A stretch of 64,000 nt of DNA from a virus: IMG/VR virus record IMGVR_UViG_3300042344_000022, positions 4,969 through 68,968 of that record. The stretch is one strand, 5' to 3'. Positions 1,072-53,924 of this stretch are shown here, piece by piece. The translations under genes and the position numbers were made by a program. Numbering within the stretch: the first letter of the stretch is position 1; each line of letters opens with the position of its first letter. The notes under the pieces are model-generated. The model did not search any database. It saw only the letters and a program-made list of their open reading frames with translations, and was not told the origin of the DNA.

Positions 1072-3156
1072 ATGGCAAGTTCCAACAATATACTTAGAGT
1101 TGCGGATCTAGACTTCTTCTCTATTCGCAATAATCTAAAAGAGTATCTCCGCAGTCAGAATACTTTTCAAGATTATGACTTTGAGGGTTCTGGTATGTCT
1201 GTAATGCTAGACATTCTGGCATACAATACCTATTACAATTCATATTACTTGAATATGGCTGCTAACGAAGCCTTTCTTGATACGGCGCAGCTTAGAAAGA
1301 ACATCGTATCACACGCCAAGGTGATCAACTATGTGCCTATGTCTATGCGTGGTGCAGAGGCTATGGTAAATGTTGTTGTCACACCAGGTCCCGATGAAGA
1401 TCAGATCATCAATTATATTACACTAGACAAATGGACAACCTTTCTTGGTGCTGATAAGGAACAAGTTAATTACCCATTCGTTGCAATACATTCTAATACC
1501 GCATATAAGAGCAACGGTTCATTTGTGTTCAGCAATGTAGTTGTTAGACAGGGTGAGGCTGTTACAATGCAGTTCCCAGTGCTGGCTAATAACACATCAA
1601 GACGCTTTCAGATTCCATCTTCTAACGTCGATACATCAACTCTAACTATTTCAGTTCAGGAGTCCGCATCAAATACTACCACAACTGAATATGTATTAGC
1701 CGCTGACATTTCAGAAATTCAAGCTAACTCTACGGTATATTTCATCGAAGAAGATCAGGACTCATATTACACAGTTTATTTTGGTGATAACTACATCGGT
1801 AAGAGACCTTCTAATGGCTCTATCGTTATTGCAACTTATCTTGATACTGTAGGTCCTAGAGGCAACAATATTTCAAGAATTGGTCTATCTGACGCTGACG
1901 GTATTGCAGGATTCAGTAGCAATGTTAGAGTTACAGTAACAAGCGCCTCTGCTGGTGGTTCTGATAAAGAAACGGTAGAACAGGTTCGTTTCCGTTCTAC
2001 TAACTATTACACCTCACAAAATCGTGCTGTTACCTCTGGTGACTATGAAGCACTCGTTACTAAAGACTTCCCTAACATTGAAGCTGTTTCTGTTTGGGGT
2101 GGTGAAGATAATGATCCTATCGTATATGGTAAAGTGTTCATGTCTCTCAAGACCAAGGGTTATTATACACTAACCAATCTAGAAAAAGAAACAATTAAAA
2201 ATAGCCTTGTTGAAAATCGCAACGTTCTAACTGTTAAGCCAGATATCGTCGATCCTGAATATGCATTCGTTCTTATTCGTGGTAAGGTTAGATATAATCC
2301 TAACTTGACAACTAGAACACAAGGGCAAATTCTAAATCTAATCAAAGAAGCTATCTACAATTACGCCACACAGGAACTATACACATTCAAATCAACTTTT
2401 AAGTTGTCTAAGATGCAGTATTATATTGAACAGTCAGAAGCATCTATTACATCTTCTGATATCGATATCTTCCTACAACGCCGTGTCAAGATGGAGATTG
2501 GCGGAACTAATACATATGTTATTAGCTTTAACACACCGCTTCGTAAGGGTGACTATGCGTTCAAGCTAAACACATATCCAACTCTTAAAGTAAAAGACTC
2601 CGCAGCTATTCAGCGTGACGTATTCATTGAAGAAACTCCAGAGTCCTATACTGGTATTGATTCGGTATCAATTCTAAATCCTGGTGTTAATTATACTAGC
2701 AAACCAACACTAACAATTACTGGTGACGGTTCTGGTGGTGAAGTTGAGCCAGTCATCGTCAATGGACGTTTTGTTTCTGTCCGAGTTATAAACCCTGGTA
2801 TTAATTACACCAGAGCGTTCGTTGAGATTACCGACAGTCAGGGTTCTGGCGCAGTTCTAGCAGTTAACCTAAGATCAACAACAGGAACACTAAGAACATA
2901 TTACTATAAGCCAAACGGTGAAAAGGTTATCGTTAATGCAGCAGCAGGCACTATTGATTATCTAACTGGTAAAATTATTCTAGATACATTGACACCTATT
3001 TCAATGCCAGCAAACGATTTCTATGATCAAGACGTTCTTACAATTAACGTTGTTCCTGAACAGGGCGTTATTGTTCCTCTGAGAAATCGTATTCTCGCTA
3101 TTGACACTAACAACATACAGGCAATTCAGCTAGACATGGTAGCCGAAACAGCATGA
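1072..3156 (+). CDS. gp6: Baseplate wedge subunit gp6
   Basis: LDFFSIRNNLKEYL, FQDYDFEGSGMSVMLDILAYNTYY, QNRAVTSGDY, VWGGEDNDP..YGKVF motifs. Confidence 0.95.
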   Translation: MASSNNILRVADLDFFSIRNNLKEYLRSQNTFQDYDFEGSGMSVMLDILAYNTYYNSYYLNMAANEAFLDTAQLRKNIVSHAKVINYVPMSMRGAEAMVNVVVTPGPDEDQIINYITLDKWTTFLGADKEQVNYPFVAIHSNTAYKSNGSFVFSNVVVRQGEAVTMQFPVLANNTSRRFQIPSSNVDTSTLTISVQESASNTTTTEYVLAADISEIQANSTVYFIEEDQDSYYTVYFGDNYIGKRPSNGSIVIATYLDTVGPRGNNISRIGLSDADGIAGFSSNVRVTVTSASAGGSDKETVEQVRFRSTNYYTSQNRAVTSGDYEALVTKDFPNIEAVSVWGGEDNDPIVYGKVFMSLKTKGYYTLTNLEKETIKNSLVENRNVLTVKPDIVDPEYAFVLIRGKVRYNPNLTTRTQGQILNLIKEAIYNYATQELYTFKSTFKLSKMQYYIEQSEASITSSDIDIFLQRRVKMEIGGTNTYVISFNTPLRKGDYAFKLNTYPTLKVKDSAAIQRDVFIEETPESYTGIDSVSILNPGVNYTSKPTLTITGDGSGGEVEPVIVNGRFVSVRVINPGINYTRAFVEITDSQGSGAVLAVNLRSTTGTLRTYYYKPNGEKVIVNAAAGTIDYLTGKIILDTLTPISMPANDFYDQDVLTINVVPEQGVIVPLRNRILAIDTNNIQAIQLDMVAETA

Positions 3157-6089
3157 CCGATAAAATCGATAACAAAACATCTATACTAGTTAAGTCACAG
3201 GTACCTGATTTCGTCAGAGCCGACCATGAGTTGTTTGTTCAATTCATGGAGCATTATTATAAGTTCTTAGAACAAGACGGACAGCTACAGTATGTCACTA
3301 AAAACTTTCCTCGCTTTCTTGATATTGATGAAATCAAGATGGATATCGATCATGATATACAAGAAGGTGAAGAACATTATATTGAAGAAGAAAGTGACTA
3401 TCATGCCTTCCTACAGAAGCTATACGATAATTACACAGCACTAATTCCTGACAGTATTCTAGCTGATAAGGTCGTGTTGCTAAAACATGCCAAGGAGTTT
3501 TATCGTACCCGTGGTTCAGAGAAGTCAATTCGCTTTCTTATGCGAGCCCTGTATAACCAGGATATTGATTTCTATTATCCTAAAGATGATATTCTTCGTG
3601 CGTCAGATGGTAAATGGTTCGTAGAAAGATCACTAAACGTTAAAGACTTTGCGGTCGATAATGTTGCCAACAGTTCTGCATATTCTCTGTTTATCGGTAG
3701 AACAATTCGTGGTGCTAATTCTAATTCTACTTGTACCGTTGAAACTGCCGATCAGTATTATGATAACGGTGTTCTAGTCACAGAACTTAAAGTTTCCGCA
3801 GTTGAACAGGACTTTGAAAACGGTGAAGAAATCTTCACGTTCTATGATGACAACGGCCTAGTCAAGAGACTGTCTTGTAATCTATTCTCTGGTCAGATTT
3901 ACACCGTTACAGTAACAAACCCTGGTTCAGGATACGTTCAAGGTTCTGCTGTTCCTATTAGTAGTAATAGTGGTTCTGGTGGTCTTGTCGTTATCTCTAA
4001 AGTTATTAGAGCATATCTTGAAGGTAAGATTAGATCGGTTGAGGTTACTCTACCAGGTGCTGGCTTTAGAGCAAACGACGCATTGCTATTCACTGGCGGT
4101 GGTGGTCGTGACGCCGCTGCTAACATCTTCGTTGTTAATGAGGACGAGACATATCATCCTTCTAGCTATGATATTATCGGTACTAGAATTATCGATGTTG
4201 CTAATAATGTAATCGCAAACACTCTAAACGTTAATCAGAGTGAAGCCTATACCAATATGGCTAACATCTATGTCAATACATCAAATCTCATTATCTCGAC
4301 AGGTATCGGTCCTGCAACAACTGTTAACCTAGATTATTGGGCATCTAATTCAAATGTTTATTTTGAGACTGGTGACGTTATCATGGCTAACAATGAGTTT
4401 GTTACAATTACTAGTAGTAATACAAAATCAAATATTATTACAGTATCACCAGCACTATCAGGAAATATTGGTGGTTACTCTTTCGATATCTATAAGAAGC
4501 CTAACGCCAATACAGTAGTAGCCAATTCTATGATATATTGGCAGTATGCAAACTGCGGTCCTGTTCTTTCTGTTAAGATTACAAACCCAGGTCTAGGTTA
4601 TTACGAACTACCATCAGTTGACGTTCTCTCTAATACCTTTGTTCGTTCTATGGGTATTCTTGGTAGAATGGAAATTGCAAACGGTGGATTCGGCTATGTT
4701 GTCGGTGATATTCTAGAGTTCAATAACAGATATGGATATTATGGTGAAGGTGCTAATGGTGTCGTTACAATCGTCGATTCCAATGGTTCAATCCAGCAAG
4801 TATCATTTACACCTCGCACAGGTTACACAATCGGCGGTTCAGGATATATACAGTCTGCACTACCTAACGTTTCTGTTATCTCACAAAACGTCAATGCATA
4901 TGGTGCGAATGTTCAAGCGGTGGCAATTATCGGTGACGGTGAATTACTTGAAGCCACATCAAATATCATTGGTGGTATTGAGCAGTTGCGTGTTCTATCT
5001 CGTGGTGCTGGATATCAACCAAACACAACTCTAAATCTTTCTACACAGGGCGACGGTCTAGCACAGGCAGATATTACAGTTATCACTGGTATCTATACAT
5101 ACCCAGGCCGTTATGTCAATGATGATGGTCATCTATCTGGCTATAACTTCCTACAGGATCGTGATTATTATCAGCCTTATTCATATGTCATTAAGTCTGA
5201 CACATCGCTTGAGAAATACAGAAAGTCAATCAAAGAACTTTCACATCCTGCTGGTATGAAGCTATTCGGTCAGCATGTTTATAGAAGTGAAACCGAAAGA
5301 TATGATATCAACGTGGCAGCCAATGTTGTTAACACATATATCACAACAGACATTGCATATCAAAATCTAATTCTAAAATTTGCTACATCAAATGGCTCAA
5401 GTTATGTTCCTACAGGAAACTTTGCATATCTAACATATGACACAAGAAGAGGAACAACAAACACCGCAGCCAATGTTGGCAACGTGATATATGATACTCA
5501 GAACATTTGGTACAATGCTGCTAATACTCAGCAATACGCCAATCTCAAAGCTAACACTTACTTTGCATCAGCTGGCTTGCGTGTAATGGGTATCTACAGT
5601 AATGGTGGTGCTATCATGTCACATGCCAATACTATGAATGTTTCAAACGTCATTTCGGTTGCTGCATGGGTAAATCAGTCAAACGTTCTAGCATATAAGA
5701 CAATTCTAACAAAGAGTGATAAGTCAACCTCAGGATATGAATTGTATATGAACGGCAGCAACCCAACGATTGATATCTATCCATCGTCTGCTGATAACTC
5801 ACTAGTGATCACAACAGGTCTAGCAAATAATAGCTGGCAGTTTGTTGCATTTACATATGACGGTATTAATATCCGTGGTTACTCAAACGGCGCCTTTATG
5901 TCCATGTCGACAGGAACATCAACTGGTGTCACTGACTCTACACAACAACTAATGGTTGGTCGTCGCAGCGGCACACCACCTCTACCGTTTGAAGGCAAGA
6001 TTGCTTCTGTTGAGATATATAATAAAGTGCTTTCAAACAACGAAATTCAAACACTATTCAATAGAGACCGCCGTAGATACGGCTTATAA
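3153..6089 (+). CDS. gp7: Baseplate wedge initiator gp7-like protein with a C-terminal LamG/concanavalin-like domain
   Basis: N-terminal SQVPDFVRADHELFVQFMEHYYKFLE, FYRTRGSEKS, LRASDGKW; LQDRDYYQPYSYVIKS...HPAGMKLFG; LamG-like tail (WQFVAFTYDG, FEGKIASVEIYNKVLS). Sits between gp6 and gp8. Confidence 0.85.
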   Translation: MTDKIDNKTSILVKSQVPDFVRADHELFVQFMEHYYKFLEQDGQLQYVTKNFPRFLDIDEIKMDIDHDIQEGEEHYIEEESDYHAFLQKLYDNYTALIPDSILADKVVLLKHAKEFYRTRGSEKSIRFLMRALYNQDIDFYYPKDDILRASDGKWFVERSLNVKDFAVDNVANSSAYSLFIGRTIRGANSNSTCTVETADQYYDNGVLVTELKVSAVEQDFENGEEIFTFYDDNGLVKRLSCNLFSGQIYTVTVTNPGSGYVQGSAVPISSNSGSGGLVVISKVIRAYLEGKIRSVEVTLPGAGFRANDALLFTGGGGRDAAANIFVVNEDETYHPSSYDIIGTRIIDVANNVIANTLNVNQSEAYTNMANIYVNTSNLIISTGIGPATTVNLDYWASNSNVYFETGDVIMANNEFVTITSSNTKSNIITVSPALSGNIGGYSFDIYKKPNANTVVANSMIYWQYANCGPVLSVKITNPGLGYYELPSVDVLSNTFVRSMGILGRMEIANGGFGYVVGDILEFNNRYGYYGEGANGVVTIVDSNGSIQQVSFTPRTGYTIGGSGYIQSALPNVSVISQNVNAYGANVQAVAIIGDGELLEATSNIIGGIEQLRVLSRGAGYQPNTTLNLSTQGDGLAQADITVITGIYTYPGRYVNDDGHLSGYNFLQDRDYYQPYSYVIKSDTSLEKYRKSIKELSHPAGMKLFGQHVYRSETERYDINVAANVVNTYITTDIAYQNLILKFATSNGSSYVPTGNFAYLTYDTRRGTTNTAANVGNVIYDTQNIWYNAANTQQYANLKANTYFASAGLRVMGIYSNGGAIMSHANTMNVSNVISVAAWVNQSNVLAYKTILTKSDKSTSGYELYMNGSNPTIDIYPSSADNSLVITTGLANNSWQFVAFTYDGINIRGYSNGAFMSMSTGTSTGVTDSTQQLMVGRRSGTPPLPFEGKIASVEIYNKVLSNNEIQTLFNRDRRRYGL

Positions 6090-6092
6090 ATA
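6085..6092 (+). promoter_or_regulatory. T4-type late promoter (TATAAATA)
   Basis: Exact T4 late consensus overlapping the gp7 stop, upstream of gp8. Confidence 0.75.
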
Positions 6093-6112
6093 TTATCTAA
6101 AGAGAGAGAATA

Positions 6113-7459: not shown

Positions 7460-10400
7460 ATGGCAAATACTGCTAACACAACTGCGCTAACCACAGACTT
7501 TAACGTTACACCTTATTATGACGATTATGATGCTAATAAGGGTTTCTATCGAATCCTATTCAAGCCAGGCTATGCAGTCCAGGCTAGAGAACTAACACAG
7601 ATTCAGACTTCCCTACAGGAACAAATTCAGCGTTTTGGTCGCAATATCTTCAAAGATGGTACAATCGTTCTCCCTGGCGCATTCTACCTAGAAACTAACG
7701 ATGGTCTAAATGCTGGTCGTGCTATTCGTTACGTTAAGATCAATGATACGGATTCAACTGGTAACACTGTTAGTGTGTCAGAATGGAACACTCTAATTGA
7801 ACAAGGCAAAGCAAATGGTAATACTCGCCTTGAGATTACTGGCGTTACATCGAACATTACAGCACAACTTATTCAGACACTAGACGGTGTTCAGTCATCC
7901 GCAAACTCTAAAACACTATACGTTGCTTATACATCAGCTTCACCAACTAATCCTACTCAAAAGGTATTCTTGCCAGGTGAAACACTAAGAGCAAACGTAA
8001 ATGGTGCAACTTATAGTGTAGTTGTTAAGAGCACCGACGCTGTTGCAAATACTGGCGTTGGTTCACGCTTTACTATTACATCAGGTGTTCTATTCGCTAA
8101 GAACCACTTTATTGCTTTCCCAGAACAGTCAATTGTTATTGATCGTTACAACCCAAACCCAACCGCAAGAGTTGGCTTCTACATTTCAGAAGAAATTGTA
8201 ACATCATCATCCGACGCATCACTACTAGATCCTGCACAGGAGGCATCAAACTTCTCTGCACCAGGTGCTGATCGTCTAAGACTAAATCCAGAACTACAGG
8301 TTGTCGGTATTGATGATACTGTAGATGTTCAGAACTTCGTAACTCTATTCACCATCGAAGCAGGACGTGTTAAGACATATCTAGCCAACACACAGTATTC
8401 ATATATCAATGATGCTATGGCTAAGAGAACATACGACAACTCTGGTGACTATGTTGTTAATGGTCTTGATATCACTGTTAAAGAGCATGACAATACAGGA
8501 TCTAACTATGGTCGTTACGACGATGGTAACAATAGCCTACTTTATGTTGGCGTGTCACCTGGCTCTGGCTATTGTCAGGGTTATCAAGTCGGCGCCCTAT
8601 CAACTTACGATCTATCAACTGACAAGGGTTTAACTTTCTCTAACGTTAACGGCCAGTATGCCGCTGCTACAATGGGGCAGTATGTAACTGTCAATGAACT
8701 TGTAGGTGGTTGGGAACTAAACAAAGCCAAGACAGTTGAACTATACAATACTGCACAGGATAGAATTAGCACCAAGAAGTGGTCAATCGCCACACAGACT
8801 GGTTCTAAGATTGGTTCTGCTACACTACTATCATATGAATATGTAAGCGGAACACCAGGCTATGACGCAAGATATAATGTATATCTAGCCGATGTTAAGA
8901 TGCTTGGCTCAAATACATTCTCAAGCGTAAGAAACATCTATGCTGCTGGCTCTGGTGTAAGTTCTCTAATGGGTGCTGATGTTATTCTTGATACATCAGG
9001 AAATGCAGTTCTTCAAAGAGTTCCAGATTCAACTCTACTCTATAGAACTGGTTCTGACTTTACCAAGACAATTCGTAGCGTTGGTGATATATCACAGACA
9101 GATACATCATTCATCTTTAATCAGACCGATGGTGTAGCTTCTACGGTTCAGGCAGCCTCAAACGGTGTATTCACTCTATCACTACCTTCTGGTATTGAAA
9201 AGTTCCCATTCGGCTCAACTACACTATCTGCTAGTGCTGCACAGGGAATCTATCTAACATTCAACCAGACATCTGGCGGTGCTAACGTTGCTGCTATTAC
9301 ACAGACTGGTACCGCTGCATCTGGTGCTGGTACTACACAGCTAGTTGGTCTAGGTACAAGATTCCAGAGACTAAACGTTGGTGATAAGATCCAGCTATCT
9401 GGTAATGGTAATTTCTATTACGTTACAGCAATCGCCAACAATCTATATCTAACTGTTGATTCCGCTCTACCAGCCGTTGTTTCAACAAATACCATTTCTA
9501 AGATTTATAAGTCTGGTGACTTGATCACTCTAACAGGTATTGGTTCTGATGCTGGCTCACAGCGCACAATTACCGCAACTGATACAACTCTAAGATTTGA
9601 TCTTAAAGAAACATTCCCAAGCGTGTTCTATGTCACAGTATCTTACCCAATTGTAAGATCAGGCGCTCTTGAAATTGAAAAGAACCTAAACATTAGCCGT
9701 TATGTTAAGATCAATTGTGCTAACAACGTTGCTGGCATTGTAGGTCCTTATGATCTAGGCTTCTCTGATGTTTATCGTATCAGAAGCATTAGAGCCAGAA
9801 CTGATGGTGTTTATCCAACATCAAACACAAACGGTTCTAATGTTATGTCATCTTTCGTGTTCAGCAATGGTCAGAAAGATACGCATTATGATCACGCAAC
9901 AATTACTCCTACAGTTACACTAGACACAAACACAAGACTGCTAGTAGAGTTGGATTACTTCACACCTGATTTCACTAATCGTGGTGGTTACTTCTCTATT
10001 GACTCATACCCAATTGAAGATGATGACACTCTATTTGATCCAACTACTGATATCAGAACAGAAAATGTTCCGATCTTTAAGTCACCAATCAATGGTGCAT
10101 CATATGATCTAAGAAACTGCCTAGACTTTAGACCAGTTAAGGCTGCGTCTGTAACTGGCTCCACAACTGTAGCTGGTGCTCCTGTCAACCCAGCAGTAAC
10201 TACGACATTCAACTACCCTGCTACTGGTATGAAGTTCCCAGTGCCATCATCATTGATCACTTATGACTTCTATTACTATCTCGGTAGAACTGACTTGGTT
10301 GTAGTTGATAAAGACAGCAACTTCCAGATCATTAAGGGTATCCCAAGCATCAATCCACAGATGCCACAGATTTATCCTGGCTCTATGGCTCTTGCTTCTA

Positions 10401-13400
10401 TCAATATTCAACCATACCCATCACTGTCACCACAGTATGCAGTATCTCTAGGACGTCCTGATCTAGCATGTTCAGCTAAGAGACTATCAAACCTACGCTT
10501 TACAATGCGTGATATTGGTGTATTGAAACAGCGTATCGTTAACCTAGAGTATTACACCTCACTATCTGTCCTCGAACGTTCTGCAACCAGCATGACAATC
10601 AAAGACGATGCTGGTAATGATCGCTTTAAGAATGGTATCTTTACCGATACATTCAACGATAGTTCGCTATCAAACACTGATGATCCAGAACAGCGTGTAG
10701 CATTCGATGACGAAGAAAAGTCAATTCGTCCATTGTATAAGATGGAAACAATCGCATACGACTATAAGACTGGACAGAATGTTCGTTATAGCAGCCCTGT
10801 TGTAACTCTACAATATACAGAAGTTGAATACTGGAAACAGCAAAGAGCAACCGTAGAAGTCAATGTTGAACGTCAGTCTTGGTTGTTCCTAGGCACAGTT
10901 AATCTATACCCAGATAATGATATCTGGATTGATACTACACTAATGCCAGATGAGCAGCTATCTAACAAGTCTGTTTCAATCGTCACTTACGGATCACAGG
11001 CTTCAGGATATCTAAACAATGCCTATACCACAAACAAGTATGGCTATTCTGGTAACACAGTAACCAACTTTGGTACATTTACTGCAAATGCCACATCAGG
11101 TGTTGTCGATGTTCTCAACAGCACACAATGGGCATCATGGAACAAGTGGGTCACTGGCTATAAAGTTTATCGTGGCACTGGCTCAAGCAGATCATACGTT
11201 GGTACATATTCAACATACGATCAAGCTAGAAGCGTAGCTAACTCTAATAACCCAATCGGCGGTCCTGGTGTTACAGTTGAGACTGTATATAACAACAATC
11301 GTTCTGGTACACAGTATTGGGAAGCATCAGGTGCCGACGTTGTGCAGACAGACTATAAGGTAATCGACATTCAGTCTTACCCATATATTCGTCCGCAGAT
11401 GATCACCGTTCGTTGTACCGGTATGAAGCCATACACTCGCATGTGGCCATACTTTGATAACGTATCAGTTGCTAACAATGCCCGTCCTCTAACAGCAAAT
11501 CAGTTTGGCTGGATCATTCAGAACGGTCAGTTTGGTCTATCACCAAACACAGTTATCGATTTGACAAAGGGAACAACAAGCGCATCTAACACCACACTAC
11601 CAGCACCATCTTCACTAACACCATGGTCATCATTCGGTACTGACCTAGTTACTGACGCTAACGGTGCTCTAAACTTCCAGTTCCAAGTAACACAGGGTCA
11701 GTTCCGTGTTGGTGAGCGTAGCATGTTGGTTATTGACAGCCGTTATCCAGTTGATCCAAACGTAGTAAAGACTAGATCAGATATCCCAGATGAAATCTCA
11801 ACTGGTGGTGCTGCTACATTTACTGCATCTGGTACAGCCGTTAAGAAGCAGCGTTCAATTCTAACAACAAAGACTGTTTCTTACCATACTGAAAAAGTTG
11901 TTCAAGACTTCCCATCATCAGATTGGGAATCAATTGCTGCTCCTCCACCACCAGCACCAGCTTCACATTCTTGTGCGGCTTATTCATTCTTGGCCAAAGC
12001 GCCTAATGGTGAAGAAGGTATTTTCATAACAAGTGTTGATATCTTCGTAGCAAGAATTGGTACAAAGGGCTTCTGGTGTGAAATTCGTGAAATGGATGCT
12101 GGTCAGCAGATCACTAGAAATACTGTTCCTTATTCAGAAGTATTCTTCAATAATCCAGCAGCAGTTCCAATTTCAACAAACGGCAGTAGCAATCCTTGCC
12201 GTGTAACATTCCAGGCACCTGTGTTCTTGTATAACGATACACAGTATGCGTTTATTATTCACCCAATTAACGCTAACCCTGATCTATATGTTTGGGTATC
12301 TAAACTTGGTCAGACAGATGTTAATGGTCTCGGTCAGGTTGTTGATCGTCGTGGTACTGGTACATTCTATCAGACAAACAACAACACCAACTGGGATATC
12401 ATTCCAGACACCGATCTAACCTGCAAGTTCTATCGTGCAGAGTTCGTTAAGAACACAGACGGCGTTGCATATCTAGCCAATAAGCCAATCGAAAAGCTAT
12501 TCGTTAGAAACGAAACGATCACCTTCGATGGCAACTATGGCGAAACATTTATGTCTGGTGATAAGATAACCGTTTCTGGCTTGACTGGCGGATCGATTTC
12601 TATCGGTGACGTTATTCACGGTAACGTTTCATTCCAGAACAGCACCGTTGTTAACGTATCAGGCGGACTAGTTCATTGTTCAAACACTGGTTACATCCAG
12701 GGTGAGAACTTCTATGTTCTAGATGGTACTACACTACTATCAAAAGCTATCTTCGGAACTGTATCCGATATCACCAATGCTCGTGGTAGCCTAAACTACT
12801 ACATCAATGGTGATACATCAATGCTACATCTAAGTGGCTCTGGTGGTGGCTTCGTCAACGGCGATTACGTTATTGCTTCTACTGATTGGAGCAAGCGTGG
12901 TTTCATTGAGAAGATCGAAGGTATCTCTAACTTTAGATATTCGTCAATGACTTTTGAACCATCATTCTTGTCATTCAAGAATACTGATATCCAGTTCAAA
13001 GTCAAGACAACATCTATCGCTGGTGTTCCTGGTAACTTTATTGATGTTGATCCATCAGAAGTTCATTACTTCAAGACTGAGCAGGGCGTTCTTTCAAGAA
13101 CAAACGAAAACGCTCTACTCTCCGGTGGTCAGTCAATGAACGTTCAAGTAACAATGCGTTCATCATCTAATGCCGTATCACCACTAGTTGATACAAACAG
13201 AACACATTCTATCATTCTTGACAATATCATCAACAATGATTACCGTGGTGAAACTTATCCAACTCACGGTCTGCTACTTAACAAGTATATCTCAAAGACT
13301 GTTACACTAGCAGAAGGACAAGACGCAGAGGATATTCAAGTTATCATTGCTGCATATCGTCCACCAGGAACAGATGTAAAGGTATGGCTCAAGGCACTAA

Positions 13401-13927
13401 ATGCCGAAGATGACACAGCATTTGACAATAGACCATGGGTAGAACTATATAAAGATGGTACAGGCGATGTTAAGTATTCATCACTAGATGATAGAAATGA
13501 CTTTATCGAATACACATATCTCGTACCTACATCAACTATTGATAGACTAACTGTGACAAATACACTTGGTACAACAATCAATGTTGGTGATACACTAACT
13601 GGACTATCTTCTGCTAACTCTGCACAGGTATCAGCCATCGAAGGCTCAATCTATGTAATGAGTGGCACAGGATTCTCTACTGGCGAAACAGCAAACGTTG
13701 TTAATTCAAGTGGCATCGTTACTGGTAACACTGTTGTTTCCACAATCGGTCGCCCAGTTGCACTAAATGGTGGCGTTGCTAATGTTCTAAGCTATACTAC
13801 TGACGCTGGCGTTACTTATCAGTCATATAAGTATTTCGCAGTTAAGATTGGTCTACTAAACGACGGCTTCAATTCTGCTATTGTTCCACGTGTCGGTGAC
13901 CTAAGAGTTATTGCTCTACAAATGTAA
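7460..13927 (+). CDS. Large VrlC-like (DUF4815-type) baseplate/virion structural protein
   Basis: FNVTPYYDDY...FYRILFKPGYAVQARELTQIQ, APGADRL, FTMRDIG.L..RI.NLEYYTSLS.LE, RFKNGIF.D.F; ends PRVGDLRVIALQM. Usual position after gp8. Confidence 0.88.
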   Translation: MANTANTTALTTDFNVTPYYDDYDANKGFYRILFKPGYAVQARELTQIQTSLQEQIQRFGRNIFKDGTIVLPGAFYLETNDGLNAGRAIRYVKINDTDSTGNTVSVSEWNTLIEQGKANGNTRLEITGVTSNITAQLIQTLDGVQSSANSKTLYVAYTSASPTNPTQKVFLPGETLRANVNGATYSVVVKSTDAVANTGVGSRFTITSGVLFAKNHFIAFPEQSIVIDRYNPNPTARVGFYISEEIVTSSSDASLLDPAQEASNFSAPGADRLRLNPELQVVGIDDTVDVQNFVTLFTIEAGRVKTYLANTQYSYINDAMAKRTYDNSGDYVVNGLDITVKEHDNTGSNYGRYDDGNNSLLYVGVSPGSGYCQGYQVGALSTYDLSTDKGLTFSNVNGQYAAATMGQYVTVNELVGGWELNKAKTVELYNTAQDRISTKKWSIATQTGSKIGSATLLSYEYVSGTPGYDARYNVYLADVKMLGSNTFSSVRNIYAAGSGVSSLMGADVILDTSGNAVLQRVPDSTLLYRTGSDFTKTIRSVGDISQTDTSFIFNQTDGVASTVQAASNGVFTLSLPSGIEKFPFGSTTLSASAAQGIYLTFNQTSGGANVAAITQTGTAASGAGTTQLVGLGTRFQRLNVGDKIQLSGNGNFYYVTAIANNLYLTVDSALPAVVSTNTISKIYKSGDLITLTGIGSDAGSQRTITATDTTLRFDLKETFPSVFYVTVSYPIVRSGALEIEKNLNISRYVKINCANNVAGIVGPYDLGFSDVYRIRSIRARTDGVYPTSNTNGSNVMSSFVFSNGQKDTHYDHATITPTVTLDTNTRLLVELDYFTPDFTNRGGYFSIDSYPIEDDDTLFDPTTDIRTENVPIFKSPINGASYDLRNCLDFRPVKAASVTGSTTVAGAPVNPAVTTTFNYPATGMKFPVPSSLITYDFYYYLGRTDLVVVDKDSNFQIIKGIPSINPQMPQIYPGSMALASINIQPYPSLSPQYAVSLGRPDLACSAKRLSNLRFTMRDIGVLKQRIVNLEYYTSLSVLERSATSMTIKDDAGNDRFKNGIFTDTFNDSSLSNTDDPEQRVAFDDEEKSIRPLYKMETIAYDYKTGQNVRYSSPVVTLQYTEVEYWKQQRATVEVNVERQSWLFLGTVNLYPDNDIWIDTTLMPDEQLSNKSVSIVTYGSQASGYLNNAYTTNKYGYSGNTVTNFGTFTANATSGVVDVLNSTQWASWNKWVTGYKVYRGTGSSRSYVGTYSTYDQARSVANSNNPIGGPGVTVETVYNNNRSGTQYWEASGADVVQTDYKVIDIQSYPYIRPQMITVRCTGMKPYTRMWPYFDNVSVANNARPLTANQFGWIIQNGQFGLSPNTVIDLTKGTTSASNTTLPAPSSLTPWSSFGTDLVTDANGALNFQFQVTQGQFRVGERSMLVIDSRYPVDPNVVKTRSDIPDEISTGGAATFTASGTAVKKQRSILTTKTVSYHTEKVVQDFPSSDWESIAAPPPPAPASHSCAAYSFLAKAPNGEEGIFITSVDIFVARIGTKGFWCEIREMDAGQQITRNTVPYSEVFFNNPAAVPISTNGSSNPCRVTFQAPVFLYNDTQYAFIIHPINANPDLYVWVSKLGQTDVNGLGQVVDRRGTGTFYQTNNNTNWDIIPDTDLTCKFYRAEFVKNTDGVAYLANKPIEKLFVRNETITFDGNYGETFMSGDKITVSGLTGGSISIGDVIHGNVSFQNSTVVNVSGGLVHCSNTGYIQGENFYVLDGTTLLSKAIFGTVSDITNARGSLNYYINGDTSMLHLSGSGGGFVNGDYVIASTDWSKRGFIEKIEGISNFRYSSMTFEPSFLSFKNTDIQFKVKTTSIAGVPGNFIDVDPSEVHYFKTEQGVLSRTNENALLSGGQSMNVQVTMRSSSNAVSPLVDTNRTHSIILDNIINNDYRGETYPTHGLLLNKYISKTVTLAEGQDAEDIQVIIAAYRPPGTDVKVWLKALNAEDDTAFDNRPWVELYKDGTGDVKYSSLDDRNDFIEYTYLVPTSTIDRLTVTNTLGTTINVGDTLTGLSSANSAQVSAIEGSIYVMSGTGFSTGETANVVNSSGIVTGNTVVSTIGRPVALNGGVANVLSYTTDAGVTYQSYKYFAVKIGLLNDGFNSAIVPRVGDLRVIALQM

Positions 13928-13937
13928 TGGAGAACAA

Positions 13938-18569: not shown

Positions 18570-19187
18570 ATGCGTTATGGTGAAGTGTCAAATGATTTGT
18601 TTATGAGAAGAAGGATGACACCTTCTAACTTTTGGATTGATGGTGTGTTTGATGATTCGGAGATAGGTAATATAGCAAACTATTGTGAAACTCTAGAATT
18701 GAATGATGCCAAGATTGTTACCGATGAGTATGTCAATCAGGTTAGAATTTCTAAAGTGGCATTTATCGGTAAAGATGATACCACAGAATGGTTTTACAAT
18801 AAGTTTAACCATGTGATCAATAGAGTTAATAACAACTATTATGGGTTCGATCTACATGGCTATGAGTCGATACAATACACGACATATGATAAAGACGGAA
18901 AGTTTGAGTGGCACACTGACTTATTGTATGATGAAAATCTTGGTAATACTAAGAACAGTGACACACGAAAGTTAAGTTTAGTTATGTTGCTGAATACACC
19001 TGGCGAAGATTTTACTGGTGGTGAGTTTTTGATCAATACTGGTAAAGAAGAAGATGCTATTACGATTGCCATGAAACGAGGAACCATTGTATCATTTCCT
19101 TCTTTCATTCCTCATAAGGTAGCACCTGTCACATCTGGAGTCAGAAAGTCTTTGGTTATCTGGGTAGAGGGACCCAAGTTTAGATAA
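18570..19187 (+). CDS. 2OG-Fe(II) oxygenase (PKHD/prolyl-4-hydroxylase-like)
   Basis: WHTD (HxD), RKLSLVMLL, FTGGEF, FPSFIPHKVAPVTSGVRKSLVIW (distal His and RxS). Confidence 0.92.
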   Translation: MRYGEVSNDLFMRRRMTPSNFWIDGVFDDSEIGNIANYCETLELNDAKIVTDEYVNQVRISKVAFIGKDDTTEWFYNKFNHVINRVNNNYYGFDLHGYESIQYTTYDKDGKFEWHTDLLYDENLGNTKNSDTRKLSLVMLLNTPGEDFTGGEFLINTGKEEDAITIAMKRGTIVSFPSFIPHKVAPVTSGVRKSLVIWVEGPKFR

Positions 19188-42177: not shown

Positions 42178-43935
42178 ATGGCATATTCACTTTCCCCAGG
42201 CGTGACTTGGTCAGAAGTTGATCTTACGACCATTGTTCCTGCCGCATCTACTACAGAAGGGGCGTTTGCCGGAAACTTTGATTGGGGTCCAGTTGACCAT
42301 ATTGTCACCATTAGTAATGAACTTGATCTTGTTCGTTGGTTTGGTAAGCCAAGCCAGAACTCATATACAGCATTCTTTACCGCTGCAAACTTCCTATCAT
42401 ATGGCAATAACCTAAAGGTTGTTCGTTCTGCTAATACTATTGTTGATGGTGCGGTTAACGCAACCACTGGTGCATATGGCTTGACCATTAAGAACGAAGA
42501 TGATTACGAAAACAACTACGCTCTAATCGGTTCAGCAAATACAGTTCCAAACACACACGGTATGTTTGCTGCTAAGTATCCAGGTGAACTTGGTAACTCA
42601 CTAAAAGTTTCACTATGGTGCGGACAAGATTCAGCAACATTCGATTCTTGGGAGTATTCATCACAGTTTGAAGGTGTTACAGGAACATCTTCTTATGTAT
42701 CATCTAAGGGTGGTGCTAACGACGAAATGCACCTTATTGTTGTTGACCGTCTTGGCAAGTTCTCTAATGGTGAAGCAAATACTGTTCTAGAACGCTTCTC
42801 TTATGTCTCAAAGGCATCAGATGCAGTCAACGATGATGGTTCATCTAATTTCTGGGTCAATGTCGTTAATGACAAGTCACAGTATCTATGGGCAATCAAT
42901 CATGCACTAGATGAAGTAACTGGTGTTTCTGAAACCTCATCATGGGGTCGTCCATCATCTACACAGAATAACACAGGTCATCTAGTTGCAACTGCATATG
43001 GTCAGTCAAATGCATCATATACAATGGGACTATTCGGTGGTAAGGTTGCTGCACCAACTAATGCACAGCTAAACTCTGCATATGATCTATTCTTGAGCGC
43101 AGAAGAAGTTGATGTTTCACTAATCATGACTGGTGACGCACCACAGGTTGTTTCAGAACACGTTCTAGATAACATTGTAGGTATTCGTAAGGACTGTGTT
43201 GCATTCGTTTCACCTGATATGGCAGACGTTGTTGATAACGCTGGTAGCGAAGTCTCTGATATTGTTTCTAAGATTGACCTATACAACTCTACTTCATTCG
43301 GTATCTTCGATGGTAACTGGAAGAAGCAGTTCGACAAGTATAATAACGTATATCGTTGGGTACCGCTAAACGGCGATATCGCTGGTCTATGTGCCCGCAC
43401 CGACTTTGATCGTGACCCATGGTTCTCACCAGCTGGTTTCAATCGTGGTCAGATTAAGAACGTTGTTAAACTTGCTTGGAATCCAACCAAGGCACAGAGA
43501 GACGATCTATACAAGAACAACATTAACCCTGTTGTCACCTTCAAGGGTGAGGGAACTGTTCTATATGGTGATAAGACCATGCAGCGCAAGCCTTCAGCAT
43601 TTGATCGTATCAACGTTCGCCGCCTATTCATTGTCCTTGAAAAGACAATCACAAAGGCTGCTAAGTATTCTCTATTCGAGTTCAACGATGAGTTCACCAG
43701 AGCCCAGTTCGTTGCTCTAGTAGAGCCATTCCTAAGGGATGTTAAGGGTCGTCGTGGCATCTACGATTTCAAAGTAGTCTGCGATACCACCAACAACACC
43801 CCTGAGATTATTGATCGTAATGAGTTTAGAGGAGATATCTATATCAAGCCTGCTCGTAGCATCAATTTCATTCAACTTAATTTCGTGGCTGTCCGCACTG
43901 GCGTTGCCTTCTCCGAAATTGTTGGCAAGTTCTAA
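42178..43935 (+). CDS. gp18: Tail sheath protein gp18
   Basis: LSPGV..SEVDLT, AKYPGELGN, WFSPAGFNRG, SAFDRINVRRLF, IKPARSINFIQLNF. GATAAATA at 42122-42129. Confidence 0.97.
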   Translation: MAYSLSPGVTWSEVDLTTIVPAASTTEGAFAGNFDWGPVDHIVTISNELDLVRWFGKPSQNSYTAFFTAANFLSYGNNLKVVRSANTIVDGAVNATTGAYGLTIKNEDDYENNYALIGSANTVPNTHGMFAAKYPGELGNSLKVSLWCGQDSATFDSWEYSSQFEGVTGTSSYVSSKGGANDEMHLIVVDRLGKFSNGEANTVLERFSYVSKASDAVNDDGSSNFWVNVVNDKSQYLWAINHALDEVTGVSETSSWGRPSSTQNNTGHLVATAYGQSNASYTMGLFGGKVAAPTNAQLNSAYDLFLSAEEVDVSLIMTGDAPQVVSEHVLDNIVGIRKDCVAFVSPDMADVVDNAGSEVSDIVSKIDLYNSTSFGIFDGNWKKQFDKYNNVYRWVPLNGDIAGLCARTDFDRDPWFSPAGFNRGQIKNVVKLAWNPTKAQRDDLYKNNINPVVTFKGEGTVLYGDKTMQRKPSAFDRINVRRLFIVLEKTITKAAKYSLFEFNDEFTRAQFVALVEPFLRDVKGRRGIYDFKVVCDTTNNTPEIIDRNEFRGDIYIKPARSINFIQLNFVAVRTGVAFSEIVGKF

Positions 43936-49325: not shown

Positions 49326-49328
49326 TAG

Positions 49329-50377: not shown

Positions 50378-50406
50378 TCAAGGAATTAAAAAGGATAAAT
50401 AAGTCT

Positions 50407-51054: not shown

Positions 51055-51087
51055 AATTGCTAAATAAGGAAAAGGAGTATCCATAAC

Positions 51088-52506: not shown

Positions 52507-52538
52507 TTTAACTTTAGTTAAGAAAGAAGGAAACTAAA

Positions 52539-53924
52539 ATGTATCTTACAGAAAACCTAGAGTCAAAGTGGTCCCCAGTTCTGGACCATGATGGTCTCAA
52601 TCCAATTAAGGACTCTTATCGTCGTGCTGTTACAGCCGTCGTTCTAGAGAACCAAGAAAAGGCAATGGCTGAGGAGTCACGCACTCTTAACGAAGCTGCC
52701 CCAACTAACGCTGGTGGTGGTCTCGGTGCTGGTACAGCAATTGGTTCATACGACCCAATTCTTATCTCACTAGTTCGCCGTGCGCTTCCAAACCTAATCG
52801 CATACGATGTCTGCGGCGTTCAGCCAATGACAGGTCCAACCGGCCTAATCTTCGCTATGCGCTCACGTTATAAGGCACAGCAGGCACAGGGTGCAGGTAC
52901 AACCGACGAAGCACTATTCTTCGAAGCAAATACCGCATTCTCATCAAAGAACGCTGCTGGTAACACCGGTGGTGCTGCTGGTACAGAATGGGCAAACACC
53001 TCATTCGGTGATTCAGCTAACACCAACCCAGTTGCCGATCTAAACGGCGACGGTACTGCATTCGGCGTTGGTCGTGGTATGACCACTTCACAGGCAGAAG
53101 CACTAGGTGATTCCGGTGCAAATGCTTTCGCTGAAATGGCATTCAACATCGACAAGGTAACTGTTACTGCTCGTAGCCGTGCGCTAAAGGCAGAATACAC
53201 CACTGAACTTGCACAGGACCTAAAGGCAATCCACGGTCTTGACGCAGAGACAGAACTTGCCAACATCCTTTCAACTGAAATTCTAGCTGAAATCAACCGT
53301 GAAGTTATCCGCACCATCTATCGCTCTGCTACTGTAGGCGCACAGTATGGTGTTACAACTGCCGGTACTTTCGATCTAGACACCGACTCAAACGGTCGTT
53401 GGTCAGTTGAAAAGTTCAAGGGCCTAATCTTCCACATCGAAAGAGAAGCTAACGCTATCGCCAAGGCAACTCGTCGTGGTAAGGGTAACGTCCTTATCGT
53501 TTCTTCAGACGTTGCTTCAGCTATGGCAATGGCCGGTGTTCTTTCATACACCCCAGCCCTTTCTGCTGATCTAACTGTTGACGATACTGGCAACACCTTC
53601 GTTGGTATGCTACACGGCCGCATTAAGGTTTATATCGATCCTTACTTCGGTGGTTCAGCAAACGGCGACGAACTAGTTACCGTTGGTTATCGTGGTACTT
53701 CACCATTCGATGCTGGTCTATTCTACTGCCCATACGTTCCACTACAGATGGTTCGTGCAATCGGTCAGGATACCTTCCAGCCAAAGATTGGCTTCAAGAC
53801 CCGCTACGGCATGGTTGCAAATCCATTTGCTACCGCTTCTGGCGACGGTGTTGTTGCTGGTCGTGAAGTTGCTGGCAAGGCCAACATCTACTACCGCATC
53901 TTCCGTGTTCGCAATCTAACCTAA
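52539..53924 (+). CDS. gp23: Major capsid protein gp23
   Basis: KWSPVL, LVRRALPNLIAYDVCGVQPMTGPTGLIFAMR, LKAEYTTELAQDLKAIHGLDAE.EL, YCPYVPL, FQPKIGFKTRYG. Confidence 0.98.
   Translation: MYLTENLESKWSPVLDHDGLNPIKDSYRRAVTAVVLENQEKAMAEESRTLNEAAPTNAGGGLGAGTAIGSYDPILISLVRRALPNLIAYDVCGVQPMTGPTGLIFAMRSRYKAQQAQGAGTTDEALFFEANTAFSSKNAAGNTGGAAGTEWANTSFGDSANTNPVADLNGDGTAFGVGRGMTTSQAEALGDSGANAFAEMAFNIDKVTVTARSRALKAEYTTELAQDLKAIHGLDAETELANILSTEILAEINREVIRTIYRSATVGAQYGVTTAGTFDLDTDSNGRWSVEKFKGLIFHIEREANAIAKATRRGKGNVLIVSSDVASAMAMAGVLSYTPALSADLTVDDTGNTFVGMLHGRIKVYIDPYFGGSANGDELVTVGYRGTSPFDAGLFYCPYVPLQMVRAIGQDTFQPKIGFKTRYGMVANPFATASGDGVVAGREVAGKANIYYRIFRVRNLT

What the first reader, a model, noticed from the sequence alone, without database searches (positions are those of the whole stretch)
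1072..53924. Virion-wide [A/S/G]-Asn motif enrichment: candidate signal for post-translational decoration of the whole particle
Seen: outward-facing structural proteins are saturated with AN/SN/GN, often ANT, SNT, ANS or ANV. By eye, gp7 nt 4194-4556 has 13 such dipeptides in ~121 aa, versus 2 in all 490 aa of UvsW. The motif recurs in gp6, gp8, the VrlC-like protein (MANTANTT), every fibre (one Asn per heptad), gp14, gp15, gp18 (SANT, SANTVPNT, EANT) and a loop of gp23. It is sparse in enzymes and in internal head proteins such as gp21 and gp22. Established: some phages glycosylate their virions, and 2OG-Fe(II) enzymes can hydroxylate Asn. Inference: one short motif accumulating in unrelated folds points to selection for a modification site (Asn glycosylation or hydroxylation) coating the virion. 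No glycosyltransferase is in this window.
Basis: partly seen in the sequence, partly recalled or inferred. Interest (0 to 1): 0.8.

Follow-up and report, generated by a model that had tools for sequence, protein, structure and literature searches.

The report
Surface Ala-Asn-Thr motif on phage particle
The outward-facing particle proteins of this uncultured T4-like phage and its relatives carry far more Ala-Asn(-Thr) than chance allows, which may mark sites where the phage sugar-coats its own particle, though no chemistry has been shown.

Summary
After composition control the signal is Ala-Asn only. Gly-Asn is not enriched and Ser-Asn only weakly.

AN is the top dipeptide of 400 in fibre and baseplate proteins (177 vs 86 expected) and second in core virion proteins (36 vs 22). 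It is in-frame only, so it is not a DNA motif.

Two layers:
- A fibre-shaft heptad x-N-[AST]-A-[FY]-x-x, probably a structural coiled coil.
- A tripeptide A-N-T in exposed loops of sheath, capsid and neck proteins (31 vs 7.5).

In uncultured relatives, exposed proteins show ANT 242 vs 36 expected, non-virion proteins 2 vs 7, the tail tube 0 vs 5. Eight cultured T4-like phages show none.

All 10 relatives at least 80% complete carry one orthologous GT2 glycosyltransferase, sitting in a sugar-synthesis cluster in the two I annotated. It is absent from 50,697 GenBank phage records. The neighbouring 2OG oxygenases do not track the motif.

Glycosylation-type recognition: about 0.4; purely structural: about 0.35.

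The parts
3153..6089 (+). gp7-like baseplate wedge protein, the most AN-rich non-fibre protein (21 AN vs 5.9 expected; 5 ANT vs 0.44)
   Evidence: PHROG/Pfam baseplate wedge; shuffles
7460..13927 (+). VrlC-like 2155-aa virion protein, starts MANTANTT; AN 21 vs 10.7
15033..15908 (+). heptad array x-N-[AST]-A-[FY]-x-x in the 641-aa fibre protein (15 AN)
19991..20980 (+). heptad array in the 478-aa fibre protein (15 AN)
22229..22369 (+). heptad array in the 307-aa fibre protein (5 AN in 47 aa); the protein starts MANTT
22937..23437 (+). heptad array in the 1048-aa fibre, which ends in a Peptidase_S74 chaperone domain
29911..30303 (+). longest clean heptad array (131 aa, 10 AN) in the 294-aa fibre protein; predicted helical at low confidence
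34221..34571 (+). heptad array in the 848-aa fibre protein
42430..42438 (+). gp18 (sheath) A85-N86-T87, in the loop just after strand 79-83; relatives have ANT, VG or DG here
42535..42543 (+). gp18 A120-N121-T122, in a variable loop aligned to T4 domain I
42775..42783 (+). gp18 A200-N201-T202, the end of a hairpin loop with Thr starting strand 202-211. ANT in 37 of 52 clade sequences; five cultured phages have Gly or Ala at the Asn column
52926..52934 (+). gp23 (capsid) A130-N131-T132. ANT in 30 of 31 clade sequences; ADT in four of six cultured phages compared. Aligns to T4 residue ~151, in the I-domain linker
52992..53024 (+). gp23 ANT at 152-154 and 160-162, aligned to T4 residues ~193 and ~201, past the I-domain linker and so placed in the surface insertion domain by inference
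18570..19187 (+). 2OG-Fe(II) oxygenase (PF13640) inside the fibre module
27737..28321 (+). 2OG-Fe(II) oxygenase (PF13640)
28309..28941 (+). 2OG-Fe(II) oxygenase (PF13759)

Best explanation
The enrichment is real and has two layers.

(1) Fibre heptad. The fibre shafts of this phage are built from a seven-residue repeat x-N-[A/S/T]-A-[F/Y]-x-x with an invariant Asn. This is most likely a trimeric alpha-helical coiled coil in which Phe/Tyr and the residue before Asn form the core, and Asn and Ala flank it. The heptad Asn is then structural. The structure and register are inferred, not shown.

(2) Surface motif. Independently, the exposed parts of sheath, capsid, neck and baseplate proteins have accumulated A-N, above all A-N-T. 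The sites lie at the ends of surface loops, where cultured relatives have Asp or Gly.

I read layer 2 as a recognition site for a trans-acting modification of the assembled surface. The most likely one is glycosylation of the Asn (or the adjoining Thr) by the glycosyltransferase set that every near-complete relative encodes. This would be analogous to the non-canonical Asn-Thr sites of the chlorovirus capsid protein.

Shown: the statistics, the clade restriction, the surface restriction, and the co-inherited enzymes in relatives. Inferred: that the enzymes act on the virion, that the motif is what they read, and which residue is modified.
For: - Protein-level signal. GCNAAY occurs 234 times in frame, 26 out of frame and 64 antisense in virion genes; it is spread over all Ala and Asn codons.
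- Order-specific. ANT occurs 41 times against 10-26 for its five permutations in window virion proteins. In related fibre loci ANT is 1277 vs 333 expected, while TNA is 343 vs 333 and NAT 246 vs 337.
- Top tripeptide. ANT leads the pooled virion proteins after heptad masking (31 vs 7.5), and ranks second in the core group alone (9 vs 1.6). Non-virion proteins have 1 vs 0.8.
- Surface-specific across the clade (unique ORFs of loci L083-L162). Exposed gp13/14/15/18/23 (n=167): AN 778 vs 417, AD 208 vs 359, ANT 242 vs 36. Tail tube: AN 28 vs 61, ANT 0 vs 5. Scaffold and protease: ANT 0. Non-virion (n=113): AN 133 vs 115, AD 174 vs 130, ANT 2 vs 7.
- Sheath domains. Within gp18 the interior domain IV has AN 4 vs 35.5, while domains II and III have 178 vs 92 and 178 vs 88 (T4 domain limits from passages of PMC3004832).
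- Recurrent gain. ANT occupies 27 distinct alignment columns in 52 sheath sequences. It is the top tripeptide by distinct columns over four proteins (46, next 35).
- Clade-specific. Eight cultured T4-like phages have 3 ANT in 8 sheath proteins and 3 in 8 capsid proteins, near expectation.
- Homologous sites. Clade ANT corresponds to ADT or x-G-x in cultured phages, without any overall Asp-to-Asn shift (N/(N+D) 0.54 vs 0.51).
- Enzymes. An orthologous ~250-aa GT2 is present in 10 of 10 AN-rich relatives at least 80% complete, and in 2 further AN-rich relatives 54% and 68% complete. It is absent from 2 AN-poor complete contigs and from T4, Mosig and S-SM2. There is no tblastn match in 50,697 phage records.
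- Gene cluster. In the two relatives annotated, the GT2 sits with a GT10 fucosyltransferase and sugar methyltransferases. In one of them it also sits with a GT4, a UDP-glucose dehydrogenase and an epimerase/dehydratase.
- Precedent. PBCV-1 capsid N-glycans sit on Asn in NTGT, NTET, NTAT and NIPG, not N-X-S/T (passages of PMC9614988).
Against: - No chemistry of any kind supports a modification.
- The window's contig is 69 kb and holds no glycosyltransferase, so the link rests on relatives.
- The AN-rich genomes may all be one clade. The perfect co-occurrence with the GT2 may then be shared descent, not an independent association.
- Large cyanophages such as S-SCSM1 encode many glycosyltransferases, which the literature reads as host-surface or DNA modification (passages of PMC12801897). 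S-SCSM1 has no ANT in its sheath or capsid protein.
- The four-residue chlorovirus form NTXT is not enriched (15 vs 11.6), and N-X-S/T is slightly depleted (188 vs 214).
- At variable sites the Asn column alternates with Asp, Gly and Ser, and the Ala column with Ser, Thr and Gly. In the sheath model the sites lie at loop-to-strand boundaries. That is what an ordinary turn position looks like.
- Counted by distinct columns, the excess of ANT over its permutations is only about 1.8-fold.
- Homologues are not independent samples, so the large pooled ratios overstate the number of events.
- gp17, a non-virion protein, shows AN 105 vs 71.
Confidence: 0.4

Rival explanations
1. Purely structural and historical. 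Asn after a small residue is simply this lineage's preferred way of building coiled-coil heptads and loop-to-strand turns. In these turns Asn takes the left-handed backbone conformation that Gly or Asp takes in other T4-like phages. Nothing is attached to it.
For: - The heptad Asn is invariant at a fixed position next to the likely core.
- The region is predicted helical (low confidence). The Atlas's nearest cluster carries Alanine_zipper in 16% of members (score 0.87, a lead only).
- Asn columns alternate with Asp, Gly and Ser.
- ANT sits at the ends of loops, with Thr starting the strand.
- The combined A-[N/D/G] enrichment is similar in clade and cultured phages (1.30 vs 1.23).
- Several AN sites of gp23 are conserved in all cyanophages compared.
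- T4 and Mosig fibres also show mild AN excess (40 vs 29; 25 vs 15).
Against: - It gives no reason why the same folds in eight cultured phages lack ANT.
- It does not explain why Asp is avoided after Ala only in exposed proteins (AD 0.58 there, 1.34 in non-virion proteins).
- It does not explain why Thr is preferred right after Asn in unrelated folds.
- It does not explain why the tube inside the sheath is depleted.
Confidence: 0.35
2. The motif is a surface property selected for binding rather than for modification. An uncharged, hydrogen-bonding Ala-Asn-Thr patch could help the particle stick to host polysaccharide or to particles, or avoid aggregation.
For: The motif is restricted to exposed domains, and Asp is replaced at homologous sites. 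C1q-like and lectin-like domains in the same proteins show a carbohydrate-facing lifestyle.
Against: Overall charge and N/(N+D) do not differ from cultured phages. A bulk surface property would not need a fixed residue order.
Confidence: 0.1
3. Asn hydroxylation by the three 2OG-Fe(II) oxygenases encoded among the fibre genes.
For: Three oxygenase genes lie inside the fibre module. The related Pelagibacter phage Mosig has genes annotated Asp_Arg_Hydrox in its fibre module.
Against: - The window's enzymes match PF13640 and PF13759, not the Asp/Asn hydroxylase family.
- PF13640 is present in 3 of 5 complete AN-rich relatives and in 3 of 5 AN-poor genomes.
- Homologues of the PF13759 enzyme are in 2 of 5 AN-rich relatives and 1 of 5 AN-poor genomes, the latter being Mosig with four copies.
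- AN excess in related fibre loci is the same with an oxygenase within 10 kb as without: ratio 2.23 in 15 loci and 2.06 in 63 loci.
- Mosig and S-SM2 have many such oxygenases and no ANT excess.
Confidence: 0.05
4. Artefact of composition, repeats or a DNA-level signal.
For: - Fibre proteins are Ala- and Asn-rich and share paralogous blocks, which inflates pooled z-scores.
Against: - Block shuffles, heptad masking and permutation controls all leave the AN/ANT excess.
- The hexamer is enriched only in frame.
- The signal is present in the single-copy sheath and capsid proteins.
Confidence: 0.03

Closest known systems
Chlorovirus PBCV-1 major capsid protein Vp54 N-glycosylation (virus-encoded, cytoplasmic, atypical sites)
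   Same: Asn directly followed by Thr on the outer face of a capsid protein, and no N-X-S/T sequon. The genome (here, those of relatives) encodes its own glycosyltransferases, a fucosyltransferase and sugar methyltransferases.
   Different: The chlorovirus sites read NTXT or NIPG, and NTXT is not enriched here. Here the preceding Ala is the strongest feature. The host is a bacterium, and no glycan has been seen. That an Ala or Gly precedes the chlorovirus sites is my recollection, from no call.
Mycobacteriophage virion glycosylation (Freeman et al. 2023, Cell Host Microbe)
   Same: Phage-encoded glycosyltransferases thought to decorate capsid and tail proteins. It is the only proven case of phage particle glycosylation that I know of.
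   Different: As I recall it (paper not held; seen only in a reference list), those glycans are O-linked to short C-terminal tails, and the enzyme genes sit next to the capsid gene. Here the motif is internal and spread over many proteins, gp23 has no Ser/Gly-rich tail, and the enzymes lie far from the structural module.
Alanine-zipper and other trimeric coiled-coil stalks (Lpp-type PF11839; trimeric autotransporter stalks with N@d layers)
   Same: Heptad periodicity, small residues in or next to the core, and a recurrent Asn (N@d described in passages of PMC4786415).
   Different: No Pfam match. In the N@d motif a hydrophobic residue lies three residues before the Asn. Here that position is variable and polar, so Asn cannot be at d in the same way (read from the sequences). 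The trimer was not confirmed.
Cytoplasmic N-glycosyltransferase HMW1C/NGT of Haemophilus and Actinobacillus
   Same: Glucose on Asn, made in the cytoplasm without a lipid carrier. PMC9614988 names it as sharing the linkage type.
   Different: It uses N-X-S/T, which is slightly depleted here. It belongs to family GT41 (recalled), which I did not search for in the relatives.
FIH and AspH type asparaginyl hydroxylases
   Same: 2OG-Fe(II) enzymes that hydroxylate Asn in proteins, and oxygenase genes are present in the fibre module.
   Different: The window's enzymes belong to other 2OG families and do not co-vary with the motif.

Membership tests
Chlorovirus-type atypical N-glycosylation sites | Modified Asn is followed directly by Thr and lies outside N-X-S/T | tested here: met
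   NT 164 vs 116 (z 4.8); [AGS]NT 84 vs 32.7 (z 9.2); N-X-S/T 188 vs 214
Chlorovirus-type atypical N-glycosylation sites | Four-residue form N-T-X-T | tested here: not met
   NT.T 15 vs 11.6 (z 1.0); ANT.T 3 vs 1.3
Chlorovirus-type atypical N-glycosylation sites | The virus encodes the glycosyltransferases and sugar-modifying enzymes | tested here: inconclusive
   Met in relatives. The window's own record is a 69-kb fragment with none.
Chlorovirus-type atypical N-glycosylation sites | Glycan demonstrated on Asn of the capsid protein | not testable with these tools
   Needs mass spectrometry or structure work on virions
Canonical N-glycosylation (PglB, AglB, NGT) | N-X-S/T sequon enriched at exposed sites | tested here: not met
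   188 vs 214 expected, z -2.1; AN[^P][ST] 23 vs 21.9
Mycobacteriophage-type virion O-glycosylation | Short Ser/Gly-rich C-terminal tail on capsid and tail-tube proteins (feature recalled, and named in scan notes) | tested here: not met
   gp23 ends ...IFRVRNLT. The tail-tube C-terminus was not inspected.
Mycobacteriophage-type virion O-glycosylation | Glycosyltransferase genes inside or beside the head module | tested here: not met
   None between gp6 and gp23 in the window. In relatives the cluster lies 20 kb or more from the structural genes.
Asn hydroxylation by 2OG-Fe(II) oxygenases (FIH, AspH) | Enzyme of the JmjC/FIH or Asp_Arg_Hydrox family | tested here: not met
   The three window enzymes hit PF13640 and PF13759 only
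Asn hydroxylation by 2OG-Fe(II) oxygenases (FIH, AspH) | Enzyme and substrate motif occur together across genomes | tested here: not met
   present and absent in both AN-rich and AN-poor genomes
Trimeric alpha-helical coiled coil (alanine-zipper type) | Seven-residue periodicity of hydrophobic or small positions | tested here: met
   Spacing peaks at multiples of 7; arrays read
Trimeric alpha-helical coiled coil (alanine-zipper type) | Helical structure | tested here: inconclusive
   The single-sequence AlphaFold2 model gives helices 90-120, 125-182 and 188-228, but pLDDT is below 50 over most of them. The Atlas model has mean pLDDT 0.73.
Trimeric alpha-helical coiled coil (alanine-zipper type) | Sequence membership in PF11839 or another coiled-coil fibre family | tested here: not met
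   No Pfam family at E 0.01 or better on the heptad region; no PDB sequence match
T4 gp18 tail sheath (for placing the sites) | Fold match to solved T4 sheath | tested here: met
   Foldseek E 1.6e-37 to 9mkb and 2.7e-20 to 3foa; PHROG 23

The most novel reading that the evidence does not exclude
A large uncultured clade of aquatic T4-like phages coats its whole particle (sheath, capsid, neck, baseplate and perhaps fibres) with a phage-made glycan. The glycan would be attached at a short non-canonical site, small residue-Asn-Thr, by a soluble glycosyltransferase system with no counterpart in any cultured phage. This would be a bacterial-virus parallel to chlorovirus capsid N-glycosylation, and the first sequence-defined glycosylation site for tailed phages.
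Probability: 0.3. Interest if true: 0.85.

Novelty: new variant of a known kind. Interest (0 to 1): 0.62.

Why it matters
If the motif marks modification sites, it would give a sequence signature for predicting particle glycosylation from metagenomes. It would extend phage virion glycosylation from a few mycobacteriophages to abundant aquatic myoviruses. It would also offer a tractable bacterial system for the unsolved question of how Asn outside N-X-S/T is glycosylated in the cytoplasm.

A sugar coat would bear on particle stability, adsorption, grazing and host recognition in natural waters.

Even if nothing is attached, two things appear to be undescribed. One is the fibre heptad with its invariant Asn: no Pfam family and no solved structure, and no paper on it in my one literature search. 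The other is the sharp contrast between exposed and hidden virion proteins, which is a usable marker of surface exposure in this clade.

Tried and rejected
- Trimer prediction of the heptad region (residues 90-240 of the 294-aa fibre, three copies) gave no verdict (score 0.03). It says nothing either way.
- The single-sequence AlphaFold2 model of that fibre was of low confidence (mean pLDDT 46.7), so I did not search folds with it.
- PDB sequence searches with two fibres found only the C-terminal chaperone domain.
- Pfam found nothing on the heptads.
- A DNA-level cause was rejected.
- A global Asp-to-Asn or charge shift was rejected.
- Late-promoter motifs (TATAAATA) near the GT2 of four relatives were found upstream in two and absent in two. 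This is uninformative.
- NCBIfam gave only generic GT2 and GT4 similarities, far below cut-offs.
- Literature searches found no paper on Asn modification of phage virions or on this heptad: virion, asparagine, hydroxylation; cyanophage, 2OG-Fe, oxygenase, tail fiber; tail fiber, heptad, asparagine, coiled-coil. Iyer et al. 2010 (PMC2938197, passages) read the cyanophage dioxygenase arrays as secondary-metabolite enzymes.

Limits of my counts:
- ORFs in fetched loci were called by my own script: longest non-overlapping frames from the first ATG/GTG/TTG, at least 100 aa, with frames holding X dropped.
- 'Fibre-like' means at least 200 aa and at least 45% G+A+S+T+N.
- Homologues had to cover at least 80% of the query, and at least 60%. 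Duplicates were removed.
- Homologous sequences are not independent.

Full report
**What the window is.** All genes lie on the plus strand and form the structural module of a T4-like myovirus (PHROGs).
- The order is gp25, gp6, a gp7-like protein, gp8, and a 2155-aa VrlC-like protein.
- Then comes about 22 kb of fibre genes, interspersed with three 2OG-Fe(II) oxygenases.
- These are followed by gp13 to gp23, gp3, UvsY, UvsW, gp55, gp47, an FtsH-like gene and gp46.
- The record holding the window is only 68,968 bases. The extra 5 kb upstream encodes baseplate-hub-like proteins as read from their translations (not scanned against a family library).
- The best cultured relative by capsid protein is Pelagibacter phage Mosig at 65% identity. 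Uncultured IMG/VR contigs reach 94%. The clade therefore has no cultured member in the collection searched.

**Checking the observation.**
- With per-protein shuffles over all 400 dipeptides, Ala-Asn stands out. It is 177 vs 86 in the fibre/baseplate group (rank 1), 36 vs 22 in core virion proteins (rank 2), and 21 vs 16 in non-virion proteins.
- Gly-Asn is at expectation and Ser-Asn barely above it. The motif is therefore A-N, not [A/S/G]-N.
- The excess is not a composition effect. It survives shuffling within 30- and 15-residue blocks.
- It is not a nucleotide motif. It is spread over all codon pairs and is seen only in frame.

**Layer one: a fibre heptad.**
- AN-AN spacings peak at multiples of seven.
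- Read directly, the arrays are x-N-[A/S/T]-A-[F/Y]-x-x. Asn, Ala and the aromatic residue are nearly invariant, and the residue before Asn is A, S, T, V, L or I.
- Eight fibre proteins share such arrays, and several blocks are paralogous, which inflates pooled statistics.
- The arrays have no Pfam family and no solved relative by sequence.
- A single-sequence AlphaFold2 model makes them helical at low confidence. The ESM Atlas places the segment nearest a cluster in which 16% of members carry Alanine_zipper (score 0.87, a lead only).
- A register with Phe/Tyr at a, the residue before Asn at d, Asn at e and Ala at g fits a trimeric coiled coil. This is inference. If it is right, the heptad Asn is a flanking, probably structural residue.
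- The same repeat is common in fibre loci of many uncultured phages. In 78 related loci, fibre-like ORFs hold 6495 AN against 3097 expected.

**Layer two: A-N-T on exposed surfaces.**
- After masking the heptads, ANT is the most over-represented tripeptide in the pooled virion proteins (31 vs 7.5). It is second in the core group alone (9 vs 1.6), and non-virion proteins have 1 vs 0.8.
- ANT outnumbers each of its five permutations (41 against 10-26).
- The sheath and the capsid protein have three ANT each, against about 0.3 expected.

**Relatives.** I fetched 80 loci around portal homologues.
- Across unique ORFs, the exposed proteins gp13, gp14, gp15, gp18 and gp23 (n=167) show AN 778 vs 417, AD 208 vs 359 and ANT 242 vs 36.
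- Proteins hidden in the particle or removed from it (n=232) show AN 247 vs 290. The tail tube has AN 28 vs 61 and ANT 0 vs 5, and the scaffold and protease have no ANT.
- Non-virion proteins (n=113) show AN 133 vs 115, AD 174 vs 130 and ANT 2 vs 7.
- Exceptions against my reading: the portal has ANT 19 vs 5; a 165-aa protein of unknown role that I had grouped as internal has 22 vs 3; the terminase has AN 105 vs 71.
- In 52 sheath sequences ANT occupies 27 different alignment columns, three or four of them conserved. By distinct columns ANT is still the top tripeptide, but only about 1.8-fold above its permutations. So the pooled ratios overstate the number of independent events.

**Where the sites lie.**
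- The sheath model (mean pLDDT 78) matches solved T4 sheath.
- In it, AN or ANT sits in loops just before or after strands, with Thr 202 starting a strand.
- Aligned to T4 gp18, the interior domain IV holds AN 4 vs 35.5, while domains II and III hold 178 vs 92 and 178 vs 88. The domain limits come from passages of PMC3004832. That paper calls domains I and II (the protease-resistant part) solvent-exposed and places domain IV on the interior; it does not say the same of domain III.
- The three capsid ANT sites align to T4 residues about 151, 193 and 201. The first lies in an I-domain linker (aa 132-160). The other two lie beyond it, in what I take to be the insertion domain that protrudes from the capsid surface (passages of PMC9546572). 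The exact domain limits were not seen, so this last step is inference.

**Clade restriction.**
- Eight cultured T4-like phages (T4, S-SM2, Mosig, S-WAM1, P-SSM4, S-SCSM1, DLP_6, Melnitz) have 3 ANT in 8 sheath proteins and 3 in 8 capsid proteins, about as expected.
- At homologous sites the clade's ANT corresponds to ADT in four cultured phages (capsid site 130). At sheath site 200 it corresponds to x-G-x or x-A-x in five cultured phages.
- There is no overall Asp-to-Asn or charge shift. The combined enrichment of Ala before Asn, Asp or Gly is about the same in clade and cultured phages (1.30 vs 1.23).
- What differs is that after Ala the clade uses Asn (1.90) and avoids Asp (0.57).
- At variable sites Asn alternates with Asp, Gly and Ser. 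This is the signature of ordinary turn positions and the main argument for a structural reading.

**Candidate enzymes: glycosyltransferases.**
The window's record is too short, so I searched relatives.
- All five first tested (94-100% complete) have a Pfam GT2 above cut-off. T4, Mosig and S-SM2 have none above cut-off.
- The five proteins are orthologues, 46-78% identical to each other.
- With one as query, the orthologue is present in 10 of 10 AN-rich relatives at least 80% complete. It is also in two AN-rich relatives 54% and 68% complete.
- It was not found in five AN-rich fragments 34-51% complete. It is absent from two complete AN-poor contigs.
- It has no tblastn match in 50,697 GenBank phage records.
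- In one relative it is followed by an unknown gene, a sugar C-methyltransferase and a GT10 fucosyltransferase. In another it is followed by an O-methyltransferase, GT10, GT4, UDP-glucose dehydrogenase, an epimerase/dehydratase and a methyltransferase. Only these two neighbourhoods were annotated.
- This is the kit for a methylated, fucose-containing oligosaccharide.

**Cautions on the enzyme link.**
- The AN-rich genomes may form one clade, so the co-occurrence may be shared descent.
- Large cyanophages carry many glycosyltransferases that authors ascribe to host-surface or DNA modification (passages of PMC12801897). One of them, S-SCSM1, lacks the motif.

**Candidate enzymes: 2OG oxygenases.**
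- The oxygenases next to the fibres do not fit. They belong to PF13640 and PF13759.
- PF13640 occurs in 3 of 5 AN-rich and 3 of 5 AN-poor genomes.
- Homologues of the PF13759 enzyme occur in 2 of 5 AN-rich and 1 of 5 AN-poor genomes.
- AN excess in fibre loci is the same with an oxygenase nearby as without.

**Comparison with what is known.**
- The closest precedent is the chlorovirus capsid protein. Its N-glycans sit on Asn in NTGT, NTET, NTAT and NIPG, outside N-X-S/T, and are made by virus-encoded enzymes (passages of PMC9614988 and PMC5408694).
- Here Asn-Thr is enriched ([AGS]NT 84 vs 32.7). However, NTXT is not (15 vs 11.6), and N-X-S/T is slightly depleted.
- Mycobacteriophage virion glycosylation is the only proven phage case I know. 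I could not read that paper.
- Other agents of this scan have noted many GT2-fucosyltransferase-methyltransferase cassettes in phages as candidate virion-glycosylation systems. None had noted an Ala-Asn-Thr motif. Those notes are leads that I did not test.

**Verdict.**
- Part of it is a structural fibre repeat.
- The rest is a clade-specific, surface-specific, order-specific motif. Its best single explanation, at about 0.4, is a recognition site for glycosylation of the particle. A purely structural reading is close behind at about 0.35.
- Hydroxylation by the local oxygenases is unlikely (about 0.05).
- Virion mass spectrometry would settle it.

Noticed in passing
window 49329-49826 (+): A 165-aa protein of no known family between the portal and the prohead protease. 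I had grouped it as internal, but its homologues are as AN-rich as the exposed proteins (AN 89 vs 32, ANT 22 vs 3 in 24 sequences). It may be an outer capsid decoration protein.
   Followed up: partly
window 16849-18024 (+): A 391-aa protein that is 56% Ala+Ser+Gly and visibly rich in Gly, His and Thr. It has long GGxGG, GHGG and GPGG tracts and short G-T-x triplet runs, and sits among the fibre genes. There was no Pfam match and only one weak PHROG match to a family of unknown function.
   Followed up: no
window 13911-14708 (+): A hexapeptide-repeat (left-handed beta-helix, acyltransferase-like) protein directly after the VrlC-like gene (Pfam Hexapep, E 4e-12). It could be a structural solenoid or an acyltransferase.
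   Followed up: no
window 30492-31943 and 31954-33558 (+): Two fibre proteins end in C1q-like domains (Pfam C1q, E 1e-8 and 2e-5). The gp7-like protein ends in a concanavalin-like lectin domain.
   Followed up: no
L001 (Pelagibacter phage Mosig, record 40-72 kb): Between its VrlC and neck genes, Mosig's fibre genes share a ~35-kb stretch with at least four 2OG oxygenases, two proteins annotated Asp_Arg_Hydrox, and a block of aminotransferase, carbamoyltransferase, methyltransferase, radical-SAM-like and epimerase genes. Yet its virion proteins lack the ANT excess.
   Followed up: partly
L180 7294-7887, 8600-9493 and 12242-13039; L183 8546-9460: Conserved genes of unknown family flank the clade's GT2 and fucosyltransferase, with no Pfam or NCBIfam match. 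They are candidates for the missing protein-recognising component.
   Followed up: partly
window virion proteins overall: Asn-Gly, the most deamidation-prone pair, is depleted in virion proteins (88 vs 110, z -2.4). Asn-Pro is enriched in both core virion and non-virion proteins (20 vs 11 and 20 vs 10).
   Followed up: no
window 60215-61999 (+): The FtsH-like ATPase gene between gp47 and gp46 (PHROG 30773) has AN 5 vs 1.6. This is an exception to the rule that non-virion proteins lack the excess.
   Followed up: no
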